Origin: a virus
Taxonomy: Duplodnaviria > Heunggongvirae > Uroviricota > Caudoviricetes
Direction: 5' to 3' (one strand)
Virus record (IMG/VR): IMGVR_UViG_2617270967_000014
DNA length: 40,547 bases
Shown here piece after piece: positions 3,001 through 6,000 of the stretch. The position numbers are program-made. How positions within the stretch are numbered: position 1 is the first letter of the stretch; every line of letters starts with the position of its first letter.

Positions 3001-6000
3001 TCTGCACGCTTTTCTTGGTATTGGTAAAATGTTTGCTCACTGGATCAAGGACAGGCTGGGTGAATATGGATTCGTTGAAAATCAAGATTTTGTGATTGCT
3101 TGCCAAAATTGGCAAGCAAAAGGTAGAGGCGGTCACAACCGCAAGGAATACCACCTCACCCTCGACACAGCCAAAGAGCTTGCGATGGTTGACGACTGCG
3201 TCCAATACTGACTATACTCCGCGCCGAGGCCTCGAAAACCTCCCAAAAGCGGATTAAACCAACCCCGTCAGTGTTGGATTTTTTATGCCTGTTATTCAGT
3301 GATAGCACAGTGTGCGGTCACATCCCCGATCAATGTCGGGAGGGCGACGAATACAACACCCGCAAGGGGAATAAGTCCGCGGTATCTTTTGGGCCGTTTC
3401 GAGCCTCCCGGCACCACATCTTGTGGTGGCATTTCTCGAAAAAAGCCAAAGGAGGTCATCATGACCACTCAACTCATCCCTGTGTTTGAAGGTACAATCT
3501 CAAATGAACCTACGCTTCTGGTGAACGCGCGTGATTTGCATGGATTTTTAGAGGTAGGTAAAGATTTTTCTAACTGGATACGGGCCAGGCTAAACGAGTA
3601 TGGATTCGTAGAAAATTTAGACTACATTCTATTTTCGCCAAATTTGGCGAAAACTCCAGGCCGCCGCCGCAAGGATTACCACCTCACCCTCGACACAGCC
3701 AAAGAGCTTGCGATGGTTGAACGTAACGAAAAAGGCCGCCAGATACGCCGCTACTTCATCGAGTGCGAAAAGAAACTTCGCAACATTCAGCCAGTACAAA
3801 CTGAGCAGCAATTCACAACCGAGGAAATCATCCTCCTCTGCTACATGCAACTCTGGATGGAAAAAGCACAACAACTCAGTAAGCAGCTATACCCCGTCAT
3901 GAGAGAACTGAATTCTGATTACTACGGGAAACTGTTTGATCTGGCCTACGAGACTCGTCATATAACCAACCGGACTCGCGACACATTGCTCCGCGAAGCA
4001 GCAAAACTTGATCCCGCCAACTATATGGTGCATAGGGCCAGAAGTATGCTGGCGCAACTAAGAGCAAGACAATTTGAATTCTGAAACCAAAGGAGCTTCG
4101 GCTCCTTTTTTCATGCCTGAAGGAAAGGAAAATGGCAGATATCATCGACAATGCCGCTGAAATCGAAGAATTGCAGCGCAATCTCTCCCTGCAAAAATAC
4201 AAATCCGATAGTAATGCCCCATCTGCTACTCATTGTTGCGAGTGTGGCGATCCGATAGATGAGCGGCGACGCCAGGCTGTTCGCGGATGCCGAACTTGCG
4301 CCAGTTGCCAGCAGGATATTGAACTTATCAACAAACAGAGAGGTGTGAAGTGAGCATAGACACCACTATAACGATCGATACGACCCTCAACACAGGTCTG
4401 GCGCTTCTTGGTTATTTTTACATTATGTTCTGCGCCGGGCGGTGGCTATCGCTGTTGTTACTGAAAAAATGGAATAAATGCCGTAAGCAGGATCAACGCC
4501 AGAAGGCAATGAATGCGTTTTCCGAAGCCTTCGGGATTGACAGCATGGAGCCAGGAGGTCCAGCTCACGTAATTAGCAGAGGTGACGTTGTAATTCTTGT
4601 ATACCGGAGCGAAGAGAAAAATGAGCGAGATTAACTATCAGGTACTGCGTGAAAAGGCAGAAAAAGCAACGCGTGGTGAGTGGTCGCTCGAATATGGAGA
4701 GAACCGATTTGATGGTGATGATGCACTAATTCATCGCGAGGCTGCTGGATATATTCCCATTTGCAGAATTGAAGGAGCACATCCTGAAAGCGGTTTCGAT
4801 GAAGATTTCCAAATGGAACAGCAGGCCAATGCTGAATTCATCGCCGCAGCCAATCCGGCTACCGTGCTGGCACTGCTGAATGAACGGGAAAGAAACCAGC
4901 AATACATCAAACGCCGCGACCAGGAGAACGAGGAAATTGCTCTTACGGTTGGGAAGCTGCGTGTTGAGCTTGAGGAAGTAAAACAACACGCTGAAGAATT
5001 ATCCGAAACCAAGGCTGTTCGTAACCAATGGCGGCCAGATATTTGCCCAATAACCGGACGTACATTTTTCATGTGGATTGAGCATCCAACATTGGGAAAT
5101 GTGCCGACATATGGTGGCCCATTAGATAGTTACACCATTCCAACAAAGGACGGTGACGGTGAGTTTTCATGTGAGCGTTACGATCATGATTTTGGCGGTT
5201 GGGTAGAAAGCGAATGTCTTGGGTTATATCTGATTGATGATAGAGAACAATGCAGGGTCTACGAACTGGAGGAACGCGTTAAAGAGCTGGAAACGCGGGA
5301 AGTTCATTTGCCGACTCGCTACGGCCTTCGATATGGACATCCGATAAATGATGATGAGCGCCACGTCATGATACCTAAAGAAAATGGCAGTTGGCTTTAC
5401 CTGATTGACCTAGAACACGCATTACGCGTCGCTGGCATTCGCATCAAAGGAGAGTGATATGGCATTAACACACCGCGAACTCTGTCAGATTGCGTACAAG
5501 TTCCTTAAGCGCAACGGGTTCAAGGTTTGTTTTCATGACCGCTTTATAGCTGTAACCAGTACCGGAGAACAGCCAGATGCTATGGGATTCAGAAATTCAG
5601 CATCATGCCTGATAGAGGCGAAGTGTTCTCGTGCTGACTTGTTAGCAGATAGAAAAAAGCGTTTTCGTAAAAATCCGTCTCTTGGAATGGGCGACTGGCG
5701 ATTCTTTATTAGTGAGCCGGGAATTATTTCAATTGAGGATTTACCACCTGGCTGGGGGTTACTTCACGTTGTTAACGGAAGAGTACGGAAAGTACATGGG
5801 TGGCCCAAGGGTAATTGCTGTTGGGGTAATCCTGACGATAAGCCATTTACTGGAAATAAGCAGGTTGAATGCGATTACATGTTATCTGCATTAAGGCGCA
5901 TGGAGTTGAGAGGGCACCTTAATGAAATATATGACGGTGTAATTGTTAATAAGAAAGAAGGAAACGCGGCATGATCACTATTACCAAAGAGCGACTACTG

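What the first reader, a model, noticed from the sequence alone, without database searches (positions are those of the whole stretch)
5438..5464. Recurring 20-bp linker at gene boundaries of the early-left accessory modules
The sequence catcaaaggag[a/g]gtgatATGGC recurs at 5441-5461, 38293-38313 and 39138-39158, with a related ggaaaggaaagtgatATGGCG at about 38594. In two cases it encodes the shared Ea22 C-terminus (IRIKGE-stop) and the next gene's RBS and start. At 39138 the same linker follows the nuclease gene, leaving the last Ea22 codons stranded in noncoding sequence. This resembles the boundary sequences proposed to mediate module exchange in lambdoid phages.
Basis: seen in the sequence. 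Interest (0 to 1): 0.5.

Follow-up and report, generated by a model that had tools for sequence, protein, structure and literature searches.

The report
Shared gene-junction linker in lambdoid prophages
A roughly 30-base sequence that ends the phage Ea22 gene and carries the ribosome-binding site and start of the next gene is shared by prophages whose genes on either side are unrelated; it marks the point where accessory genes have been swapped, inserted and deleted many times, making it a clear example of an already proposed mechanism of phage mosaicism rather than a new kind of element.

Summary
The 22-mer CATCAAAGGAGRGTGATATGGC occurs exactly three times in the window (0 expected by chance).

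It is the core of a ~27-33-nt block, GCTGGCATTCGCATCAAAGGAGAGTGA(T/G)ATG. The block holds the last Ea22 codons (AGIRIKGE-stop), a Shine-Dalgarno sequence read in frame as K-G-E, and the next gene's start.

In fetched viral contigs it joins 11 unrelated Ea22 C-terminal-domain types to 16 unrelated downstream genes in 49 combinations, requiring at least 23 exchanges. Similarity ends sharply at its edges. Small cassettes are bracketed by two copies and occur in permuted orders. One contig differs from the window by an exact 300-bp indel between two copies.

The best explanation is a short conserved boundary sequence used as a homologous-recombination crossover point. It is kept because it is also a protein tail and translation-start signal. 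It would also explain the "+GE" Ea22 C-terminus, whose significance was reported as unknown.

The concept is known (Susskind-Botstein; Clark et al. 2001), so this is a new, well-documented member of a known kind. Interest is moderate.

The parts
5431..5463 (+). Linker copy A: GCTGGCATTCGCATCAAAGGAGAGTGATATGGC. It holds the Ea22-A tail (AGIRIKGE*), the SD AAGGAG, the stop TGA, one T, and the ATG of the 171-aa gene.
38283..38315 (+). Linker copy B1: GCTGACATTCGCATCAAAGGAGAGTGATATGGC, the Ea22-B tail (ADIRIKGE*) plus the start of orf87.
38585..38616 (+). Degenerate linker copy B2 with a scar. It consists of ATGACAAC (an EaA-type start), CATGGGAAAGGAAAGTGA (a tail like ...MLHGKGE* of EaA-type genes elsewhere), then T and the ATG of the 171-aa gene. 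It forms the right edge of the 300-bp orf87 indel.
39123..39155 (+). Linker copy B3. The mini-ORF MTTSIKGG* is an EaA-type start (ATGACCACTA) fused to an orphan Ea22 tail (GCATCAAAGGAGGGTGA). It is followed by T and the ATG of orf95.
24889..24921 (-). It is an orphan Ea22 tail (...IVAGIRIKGE*, a 16-codon remnant) between the DUF977 gene and the start (24893) of a DUF551 gene in the early-right region.
4621..5457 (+). Ea22-like gene of prophage remnant A (278 aa, PF13935).
5459..5974 (+). 171-aa cassette, copy A. It has a PD-(D/E)XK nuclease fold; its function is untested.
5971..6684 (+). EaA-like gene (MITITKERLL...) overlapping the 171-aa gene by ATGA. It loses similarity to EaA near 6650.
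37710..38309 (+). Ea22-like gene of prophage B (199 aa, PF13935, E = 1.8e-41).
38311..38574 (+). orf87 cassette (phrog_1714, function unknown).
38611..39126 (+). 171-aa cassette, copy B.
39151..39438 (+). orf95 cassette (phrog_2821, function unknown). It is unrelated to orf87 but shares both of its junction sequences.
38569..38592 (+). Linker 2, copy 1: GGATAAGGACTAACACATGACAAC, the end of orf87 plus an EaA-type SD and start.
39426..39449 (+). Linker 2, copy 2: GGATGAGGACTAACACATGACTAC, the end of orf95 plus the start of the EaA/DUF551 gene. It is the same junction as eaI|eaA in P22.
39442..39939 (+). EaA-family gene with a DUF551 C-terminal domain (165 aa).
24309..24893 (-). DUF551 gene (194 aa, MTTFTKEQLISH...) served by the fifth linker copy. 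The same gene lies directly after real Ea22 genes in L345 and L355.
35301..36763 (+). RecT-family annealing protein (35301-36086) and YqaJ-type exonuclease (36083-36763) in the same leftward operon, upstream of the cassette array. They are candidate catalysts of short-homology exchange, by inference only.
   Evidence: PMC3945230

Best explanation
The motif is the core of a short conserved boundary sequence of about 27-33 nt: GCTGGCATTCGCATCAAAGGAGAGTGA(T/G)ATG. It does two jobs.

First, it is a functional junction. It encodes the C-terminal tail of Ea22/Ead proteins (A-G-I-R-I-K-G-E-stop). Its AAGGAG is a Shine-Dalgarno sequence 6 nt upstream of the next gene's ATG. The upstream stop codon lies 1 nt before that ATG, an arrangement that should couple translation of the two genes.

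Second, it is the only stretch of identity between otherwise unrelated Ea22 C-terminal domains on its left and unrelated accessory genes on its right. It therefore serves as the crossover point for homologous recombination between co-resident or co-infecting lambdoid, P22-like and even P1-like phages and prophages. The enzymes are most plausibly phage annealing proteins (Red-beta, RecT or Erf) or RecA.

Repeated exchange there reassorts Ea22 domains and downstream genes. Copies of the short core (AAAGGAGAGTGATATG) at the ends of successive small genes allow whole cassettes to be inserted, deleted and reordered.

Shown here: the conservation, the position at gene junctions, the combinatorial flanks, the sharp similarity breaks, the indel between copies, and the arrays. 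Inferred: that homologous recombination is the mechanism, which enzymes act, and that the junction couples translation.
For: (1) Not chance: 3 exact copies against 0 expected, and 5 copies of the 16-mer core (up to 2 mismatches) against 0.04 expected.

(2) In 118 IMG/VR occurrences there were 14 left types and 9 right types in 36 combinations, with 38 four-gamete quartets. Across all fetched loci there were 11 x 16 types in 49 combinations, cycle rank 23.

(3) The flanks are truly unrelated. The 90 nt to the left of the block are 27% identical between types, which is the random level. orf87 and orf95 give no BLASTP alignment. Fourteen downstream families follow the core.

(4) Conservation runs from about -11 to +21 and falls from 1.00 to 0.44-0.50 in one step after ATGGC. 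There is no length variation at the junction in any combination.

(5) In an unbiased sample taken through the Ea22 N-terminal domain, 54 of 72 genes end on the block.

(6) Variable bases inside the block (T/G after TGA; the GAA codon variant) track the downstream gene, yet each occurs with several upstream types. This places most crossovers in the left ~22-27 nt. That length matches the minimal efficient pairing segment quoted for Red-beta (23-27 bp) and RecA (31-34 bp) in PMC3945230.

(7) Window B and L122 are 99.8% and 98.7% identical on either side of an exact 300-bp indel (38305-38604) whose edges lie in two linker copies.

(8) Arrays: 21 locus strands have 2 core copies, 5 have 3, and the window has 4 on its plus strand. 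Cassettes of 64, 73 and 71 aa are exactly bracketed (196, 223 and 217 nt), and cassette order is permuted between loci.

(9) The block travels with the downstream gene. The same DUF551 gene lies after real Ea22 genes (L345, L355) and, carrying an orphan Ea22 tail, in the early-right region of the window and of 41 fetched loci.

(10) Opportunity exists. The block is in 1190 of 5426 complete E. coli genomes, with up to 5 copies per genome, and in 106 named phage records. A RecT/YqaJ pair lies in the same operon.

(11) Lambda's ea22 ends with the same 27 nt.
Against: No recombination was observed directly, and all evidence is comparative.

The block is not markedly more conserved than other shared segments of the same genes (about 94% against 92%). 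Part of that identity was also forced by my search pattern.

In P22 the tail is conserved as protein (AGIKVKGE*) with synonymous and conservative DNA changes. So functional constraint on the tail or SD exists independently of recombination and could account for part of the conservation.

Outside Ea22 contexts only the 16-18-nt core is shared. That is below the published pairing minimum and is essentially SD plus spacer plus start.

Two junctions in the window (38585-38597 and 39123-39133) look like deletions that ended outside the block, so non-homologous or microhomology events also act here.

The IMG/VR contigs are mostly prophages of related enterobacterial isolates, so raw counts are pseudo-replicated. 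Only distinct combinations should be trusted.
Confidence: 0.75

Rival explanations
1. Function only. The block is conserved purely because it is needed, as an Ea22 C-terminal tail and as a strong RBS and coupling signal for whatever gene follows. The mosaic joints arose by illegitimate (non-homologous) recombination anywhere, and selection kept only products with intact genes (the Hendrix/Juhala model). On this view the block is a survivor, not a recombination site.
For: P22 EaD keeps the tail as protein with changed codons. P22-type Ead proteins end ...AAAAGKGE* on the same core. The geometry of SD, spacing, stop and start is canonical (read directly). The block is no more conserved than other shared segments. 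Some nearby joints are clearly not at the block.
Against: Illegitimate joints should differ in sequence and length from event to event. Here 49 combinations share one seamless junction with no length variation. The 300-bp indel has its edges inside two copies. SNPs inside the block segregate with one flank only, as expected for crossovers within it. Unrelated proteins (64-, 71- and 73-aa cassettes and truncated EaA-type genes) all end in KGE*, which is hard to explain by protein function.
Confidence: 0.15
2. Nuclease-driven mobility. One of the cassettes cuts at or near the linker in genomes that lack it, and repair copies the cassette in, as with homing endonucleases. Candidates are the 171-aa PD-(D/E)XK protein or the 121-aa HNH-like protein seen in other loci. 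The linker would then be a target or co-conversion boundary.
For: The 171-aa protein has a PD-(D/E)XK fold with invariant D40, E53 and K55, and it is the commonest gene after the linker (87 of about 200 occurrences). A cassette starting MALTKKQRAELRMKFGGRCAYCGCEL... looks HNH-like from my own reading of the sequence; it was not tested.
Against: At least 12 other cassette families with no nuclease features use the same junction. Ea22 C-terminal domains on the other side are reassorted as well. No nuclease activity or target is known. Nothing in the data requires a double-strand break at this site.
Confidence: 0.04
3. Generic strong RBS or chance. AAGGAG-N6-ATG with an adjacent stop arises repeatedly by convergence, and the recurrence carries no information about history.
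For: GTGATATG is also found at an unrelated small gene at 40031 (GGAGGTAGTGATATG) and at three other places in the window. A few IMG/VR hits of the 18-mer have unrelated-looking contexts, for example EYKNLKGE|MALSAEQ.
Against: Zero copies are expected in shuffles. The conserved block includes 12 nt with no RBS role. No other gene start in the window has the 16-mer core. The CATC-containing 20-mer is limited to Escherichia and Shimwellia among 185,579 species representatives.
Confidence: 0.02

Closest known systems
Short conserved 'boundary sequences' or linkers between functional modules of lambdoid phages (Susskind & Botstein 1978; Clark et al. 2001, HK620), as summarised in PMC3029335
   Same: It is a stretch of tens of bases conserved between phages whose neighbouring genes are unrelated. 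It sits at gene borders in the non-structural part of the genome and is proposed to be the site of homologous exchange that creates mosaics.
   Different: I could not read Clark et al. 2001, so I do not know whether this particular junction is on their list. Here the sequence is tied to a specific protein tail and translation junction. It recurs as the short core at several successive gene ends, forming cassette arrays. It is documented with 49 flank combinations.
Relaxed homologous recombination by Rad52-like phage recombinases (Red-beta, RecT, Erf) as the source of mosaics (De Paepe et al. 2014, PMC3945230)
   Same: It concerns exchange between temperate phages and defective prophages over short or diverged homology. 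The quoted minimal pairing lengths (23-27 bp for Red-beta, 31-34 bp for RecA) match the size of the block. A RecT/YqaJ pair sits in the same operon.
   Different: That work measured exchange over hundreds of bases of diverged homology. A single isolated ~27-nt patch flanked by unrelated DNA on both sides was not tested there or here.
The '+GE' C-terminal tripeptide of Ea22 proteins (Dydecka et al. 2020, PMC7093339) and the mosaic C-terminal domain of Ea22 (PMC10834534)
   Same: It is the same genes and the same feature. All Ea22 proteins end in K/R-G-E despite unrelated C-terminal domains, and Ea22 is described as a mosaic.
   Different: Those papers treat it as a protein motif of unknown significance. 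Here it is read as the in-frame translation of the next gene's Shine-Dalgarno region (AAA GGA GAG TGA). It is shared at the DNA level and also ends unrelated proteins.
PeSL regulatory cassettes (promoter-early plus stem-loop) that flank shuffled genes in T4-type phages
   Same: They are repeated short expression signals bracketing small accessory genes in a hyperplastic region, thought to promote modular shuffling by recombination between repeats.
   Different: No promoter, terminator or stable hairpin occurs at the linkers here. The signal here is translational (SD, stop, start), not transcriptional.
Integron gene-cassette arrays
   Same: They are arrays of small, promoterless, unrelated genes in one orientation separated by a recurring junction, with insertion, deletion and reordering of cassettes.
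   Different: There is no attC-type imperfect inverted repeat or foldable structure and no dedicated integron integrase. Exchange is inferred to be homologous rather than site-specific.

Membership tests
Lambdoid-phage boundary (linker) sequence | A short sequence conserved among phages in which the DNA on both sides is unrelated | tested here: met
   The block from about -11 to +21 is near-invariant across 14 left and 9 right flank types. Flanks beyond it are at random-level identity. orf87 and orf95 are unrelated.
Lambdoid-phage boundary (linker) sequence | It lies at the border between genes or functional modules | tested here: met
   Every copy in the window and in the fetched loci spans the stop of one gene and the start of the next.
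Lambdoid-phage boundary (linker) sequence | Flanking modules are found in multiple alternative combinations, with similarity breakpoints at the sequence (evidence of exchange there) | tested here: met
   There are 49 combinations of 11 x 16 types with cycle rank 23, 38 four-gamete quartets, an exact 300-bp indel between copies, and internal SNPs that segregate with one flank.
Lambdoid-phage boundary (linker) sequence | Homologous recombination actually occurs at the sequence | not testable with these tools
   This needs marked crosses in Red/RecT and RecA backgrounds with sequencing of the joints.
Translationally coupled gene junction (SD inside the upstream gene, stop next to start) | A Shine-Dalgarno sequence at a suitable distance from the start, and the upstream stop within a few bases of the downstream start | tested here: met
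   In AAAGGAGAGTGATATG, GGAG ends 6 nt before the ATG and the TGA ends 1 nt before the ATG (read directly).
Translationally coupled gene junction (SD inside the upstream gene, stop next to start) | Downstream translation depends on upstream translation | not testable with these tools
   This needs reporter fusions with premature stops or SD mutations.
Integron attC-type recombination site | An imperfect inverted repeat that folds as single-stranded DNA, with a tyrosine integrase of the IntI type next to the array | tested here: not met
   DNA folding of both strands gave z-scores of +0.6 to +1.4, no better than shuffles. No IntI-type gene was seen among the array's annotated neighbours, although no specific IntI search was run.
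T4-type PeSL shuffling cassette | An early promoter plus stem-loop or terminator within the repeated unit | tested here: not met
   No promoter-like site lies at any linker copy. The only terminator-like match touching one (38606-38628) is on the opposite strand. Counts in 37400-40547 are similar to shuffles. There is no stable hairpin.
Homing-endonuclease target site | A nuclease gene inserted at or next to its own recognition site, with presence/absence polymorphism and a dependence on that nuclease | tested here: inconclusive
   A PD-(D/E)XK-fold cassette is common next to the linker. However, at least 12 non-nuclease cassette families use the same junction. Cleavage specificity cannot be tested here.
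Ead/Ea22-like protein family (PF13935), for the upstream genes | A significant match to the Ead_Ea22 domain | tested here: met
   E = 1.8e-41 for 37710-38309 and E = 1.1e-27 for 4621-5457, both above the curated cut-off.
PD-(D/E)XK nuclease superfamily, for the 171-aa cassette | The restriction-endonuclease-like fold with conserved D...(D/E)xK residues | tested here: met

The most novel reading that the evidence does not exclude
The exo-xis (ea) region of lambdoid and P22-like phages works as a recombinase-driven gene-cassette array, a homologous-recombination counterpart of an integron. In it, a portable translation-coupling linker (K-G-E-stop-N-Met) has been selected as a universal handle. 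The handle lets the annealing recombinase encoded just upstream in the same operon capture, delete and reorder promoterless accessory genes and swap Ea22 C-terminal domains. The '+GE' tail of Ea22 and of unrelated small proteins would be the footprint of that handle rather than a protein motif.
Probability: 0.15. Interest if true: 0.7.

Novelty: new member of a known kind. Interest (0 to 1): 0.45.

Why it matters
How phage genomes become mosaics is an old question. One view holds that exchange happens at short conserved linkers. The other holds that it happens by random illegitimate joining followed by selection. Reviews note that linkers cannot be found at most mosaic borders (PMC3029335).

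This junction is an unusually clean linker case. A single ~30-nt patch is present in about a fifth of complete E. coli genomes and in Stx, P22-like and P1-like phages, and it has been used for at least 23 exchanges in the sample examined. It therefore gives a defined substrate on which to test short-homology recombination by phage annealing proteins.

It also offers an explanation for a published puzzle, the '+GE' end of Ea22 proteins. The reshuffled region affects the lysis-lysogeny decision of Shiga-toxin phages (PMC7093339). The practical consequence for annotation is that KGE-ending small proteins and orphan 'IRIKGE' codons in prophages are junction footprints.

Tried and rejected
(1) A single-sequence AlphaFold model of the 171-aa protein was unusable (pLDDT 45.6). 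It was replaced by a model built on an alignment.

(2) My first comparison of linker identity with N-terminal-domain identity was flawed by crude start-codon choice. I redid it with BLASTN. Even then it is biased, because the search pattern fixes 12 bases of the block. I therefore do not claim the block is unusually conserved.

(3) Pfam, NCBIfam and PDB sequence searches gave nothing for orf87, orf95 or the 171-aa protein. PHROGs gave only families of unknown function.

(4) A full-text search for the linker sequence returned two unrelated papers. Clark et al. 2001 is not held.

(5) The genome-contig scan used the CATC-containing version, so it understates the range of the short core, which also occurs with P22-type Ead genes.

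(6) An attC-like hairpin and a PeSL-like promoter/terminator were both tested and rejected.

(7) The Chi site was considered and rejected. The block starts GCTGGCAT, which matches Chi (GCTGGTGG) only in its first five bases, so it is not Chi (direct reading).

(8) A cognate toxin-immunity pairing between the Ea22 C-terminal domain and the downstream small gene was considered, because the architecture resembles polymorphic toxins. It was rejected because the two sides assort almost freely.

(9) An RNA gene or tRNA at the linker was checked, and none was found.
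Full report
**1. The observation**

The 22-mer CATCAAAGGAGRGTGATATGGC occurs exactly at 5442-5463, 38294-38315 and 39134-39155. None is expected in 100 dinucleotide-preserving shuffles. The 16-mer core AAAGGAGRGTGATATG, allowing two mismatches, adds 38598-38613 (AAAGGAAAGTGATATG) and a minus-strand site at 24891-24906. That makes 5 sites against 0.04 expected.

At 5442 and 38294 the motif is the end of two Ead_Ea22 (PF13935) genes, 4621-5457 and 37710-38309. It reads ...IRIKGE-stop, then one T, then the next gene's ATG. At 39134 it follows the stop of a 171-aa gene, so the Ea22-type codons are orphaned.

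First, the copies at 5442 and 38294 lie inside longer paralogous repeats (5284-5464 = 38136-38316 at 94%; 5446-5745 = 38598-38897 at 96%). Second, there is a fifth copy on the other strand, in a different part of the prophage (24889-24921).

**2. Context**

The window starts in a host molybdopterin oxidoreductase gene (1-2397). Next comes prophage remnant A, at about 2800-6650 on the plus strand. It contains two AntA-type antirepressor genes, a TraR-like gene, Ea22, the 171-aa gene and a truncated EaA-like gene.

A defective lambdoid prophage B follows. On the minus strand it has lom, tail fibre, lysis, a NanS-like esterase, Q, NinB, replication genes, cII and cro. On the plus strand it has cI, an ExoVIII-like gene, RecT, a YqaJ exonuclease, small exo-xis genes, Ea22, orf87, the 171-aa gene, orf95, an EaA/DUF551 gene, a zinc-ribbon gene and an excisionase-like gene. 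The closest relatives are Stx-converting phages and Shigella phages, but the exact mosaic is not in the phage or complete E. coli genome collections.

**3. What the motif is across phages**

Reading the gene on each side shows one seamless junction. It joins many different Ea22 C-terminal ends (...LSTPCTDSIINSIATG...MAYKVSEVIAAIRAAG...GFRNAEYIGIRNWLAG...KPTVRIVEVNVPRAAG...GVPRVLWEIRRMSTTG and others) to eight unrelated downstream genes.

Clustering gives 14 left types and 9 right types in 36 combinations, with 38 four-gamete quartets. The bipartite graph has cycle rank 23, so at least 23 exchanges at this junction are needed.

Among different flank types the conserved block runs from about -11 to +21: GCTGGCATTCGCATCAAAGGAGAGTGATATGGC. 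Conservation drops in one step after the second codon of the downstream gene and tapers over about six bases on the left. The 90 nt to the left of the block are 27% identical between types, which is the random level.

That sample required the motif. I therefore drew a second sample through the conserved Ea22 N-terminal domain. Of 72 genes whose end was in the fetched DNA, 54 end on ...ATTCGCATCAAAGGAGAGTGA(T/G)ATG. These bring in further downstream genes. Phage lambda's own ea22 ends with the same 27 nt, but no gene start follows.

**4. More than an Ea22 tail**

The right-hand core AAAGGAGAGTGATATGGC also ends genes that are not Ea22:
- truncated EaA-type genes (...CRAAMLHGKGE*)
- a 64-aa gene (...NHLRTKGE*)
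- a 73-aa gene (...AAGKGE*)
- a 71-aa gene (...RSNKGE*)
- P22-type Ead genes (...RAAAAGKGE*)

In all there are 40 distinct tail|head contexts.

Some loci carry two or three copies in a row, and small genes are exactly bracketed by them: 196, 223 and 217 nt start to start for the 64-, 73- and 71-aa genes. The same cassettes appear in different orders after Ea22:
- Ea22|87|171|95 in the window
- Ea22|171|x|87
- Ea22|95|x|87
- Ea22|69|x|171
- Ea22|64|69|x|171
- Ea22|64|171

Contig L122 is 99.8% and 98.7% identical to window B on the two sides of an exact 300-bp indel (38305-38604, which is orf87). The edges of the indel fall within the two copies AAAGGAGAGTGATATGGC and AAAGGAAAGTGATATGGC.

A second junction, AGGAnTAACAnATGAC(C/A)AC, links at least six different small genes to EaA-family genes. 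It is the eaI|eaA junction of P22. orf87 and orf95, which have no detectable similarity, share both junctions.

The short stretches before the 171-aa gene and before orf95 in window B look like scars. In each, an EaA-type start (ATGACAAC or ATGACCACT) is fused to a KGE-type tail.

**5. The fifth copy**

On the minus strand, 24921-24889 reads GCTGGCATTCGCATCAAAGGAGAATGAGATGAC. It lies between the stop of a DUF977 gene and the start of a DUF551 gene, in the early-right region. The Ea22-frame ORF there is only 16 codons long.

The same arrangement is present in 41 fetched IMG/VR loci. The same DUF551 gene also lies directly after genuine Ea22 genes of two different C-terminal types. So the block moved together with the gene it serves.

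**6. Mechanism**

The block has no significant DNA secondary structure and no promoter or terminator. It overlaps no Rfam family or tRNA.

Its geometry is that of a coupled translation junction, read directly from the sequence. GGAG ends 6 nt before the ATG, and the upstream stop ends 1 nt before it.

Variable bases inside the block show where exchange happened. The T/G after TGA and the GAA codon variant go with the downstream gene, yet each is found with several upstream types. Most crossovers therefore lie to their left, within about 22-27 nt. That is the size quoted for the minimal efficient pairing segment of Red-beta (23-27 bp) and close to that of RecA (31-34 bp) (PMC3945230).

Opportunity is ample. 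The 33-mer is in 1190 of 5426 complete E. coli genomes, with up to five copies per genome and 118 copies on plasmids. It is also in 106 named phage records, including Stx phages, P22-like coliphages, Salmonella phages and the P1-like phage P7. A RecT/YqaJ pair lies in the same operon.

I therefore favour homologous exchange at a short conserved boundary sequence, with confidence 0.75. The sequence persists because it is also a working protein tail and translation signal.

The main rival holds that the block is conserved only for function and that joints arose illegitimately. Three results support it: P22's protein-level conservation of the tail with changed codons, the block being no more conserved than other shared segments, and nearby joints that are clearly not at the block. 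It does not explain one seamless junction across 49 combinations, or the indel between copies.

**7. Comparison with what is known**

Short conserved boundary sequences as sites of homologous exchange were proposed by Susskind and Botstein (1978) and by Clark et al. (2001). They are regarded as identifiable at only a minority of mosaic borders (PMC3029335). The mosaic C-terminal domain of Ea22 has been described (PMC10834534).

Dydecka et al. (2020) noted that all Ea22 proteins end in a '+GE' tripeptide of unknown significance (PMC7093339). The present analysis gives a simple reading: AAA GGA GAG is the next gene's Shine-Dalgarno region translated in frame. This would explain why unrelated small proteins in the same region end the same way. 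I found no paper quoting the sequence, and I could not read Clark et al. 2001.

**8. Verdict**

It is a new, unusually well-documented member of a known kind, not a new kind of element. Interest is moderate (0.45).

The most novel reading not excluded is that the region is a recombinase-driven cassette array whose linker has been selected as a handle. I give that a probability of about 0.15.

Noticed in passing
window 20191-20389 and 21776-21974 (minus strand), with genes 19455-20138 and 21057-21722: There are two copies of a C4 antisense RNA + isrK + c4-a1b1 target module. Each lies upstream of an ORF6N/P22_AR_C antirepressor gene, and the two flank NinB. This looks like a duplicated P1/P7-type immI-like antirepressor control unit (repeat families D4, D8 and D14).
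   Followed up: partly
window 23838-24012 (minus strand) and 22795-23289 (minus strand): A sok antitoxin RNA match (110 bits) suggests a hok/sok-type toxin-antitoxin locus in the early-right region, close to a Fic/DOC-family gene.
   Followed up: no
window 14712-17921 (minus strand): The region holds the Q antiterminator (17388-17921), the STnc100 sRNA (16844-17049) and a DUF1737/SASA/DUF6645 esterase of the kind found downstream of stx in Stx phages. There are no tRNA genes, and the gap looks too short for a toxin operon.
   Followed up: partly
window 27245-27330 and 28017-28170: Repeated 30-49-nt units (CCGGGTTAACCCAATCGGCTTC...), two of them 100% identical, lie in and just upstream of the 360-aa gene at 26904-27986, which has no Pfam match. 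They may be replication-origin iterons.
   Followed up: no
window 7433-13823: Prophage B goes from the lysis genes (Rz 12496-13011, lysozyme 13290-13823) almost straight to a tail-fibre gene (9216-10484) and lom (7433-8170). Head and tail morphogenesis genes are missing, so the prophage is defective.
   Followed up: partly
window 1-2397 and 6600-7430: The window begins in a host molybdopterin oxidoreductase gene. Remnant A's EaA-like gene loses similarity to EaA near 6650, where unrelated DNA begins, including a 132-aa minus-strand ORF at 6605-7003 with no Pfam match. This marks the border between the two prophage-derived regions.
   Followed up: partly
proteins P0091, P0093, P0104 (Salmonella) and loci L126-L131: The junction's stop codon is sometimes absent. 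Salmonella proteins fuse an Ead_Ea22 domain to a homologue of the 171-aa PD-(D/E)XK protein. A read-through variant, ATCAAAGGAGAGGAGCATGG..., extends Ea22 by 8 residues. So downstream cassettes can become Ea22 C-terminal domains.
   Followed up: partly
phage P7 (AF503408 / NC_050152) 88445-90190: The P1-like phage P7 carries the Ea22 | linker | 171-aa | EaA-like module at 98% identity to window region A. The module has therefore crossed into a non-lambdoid phage family. 118 copies of the block are on E. coli plasmids.
   Followed up: partly
window 24889-24921 (minus strand) versus 38283-38315 and 39123-39155 (plus strand): Within prophage B the block is present in inverted orientation about 13.4 kb from the plus-strand copies. 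Recombination between them would invert the immunity and recombination region. I did not look for such inversions.
   Followed up: no
window 19417-19436, 22759-22778 and 23600-23619: There are three copies of a G+C-rich hairpin, AAACCCCGCCGAAGCGGGTT, which looks like a terminator, in the early-right region (family D15).
   Followed up: no
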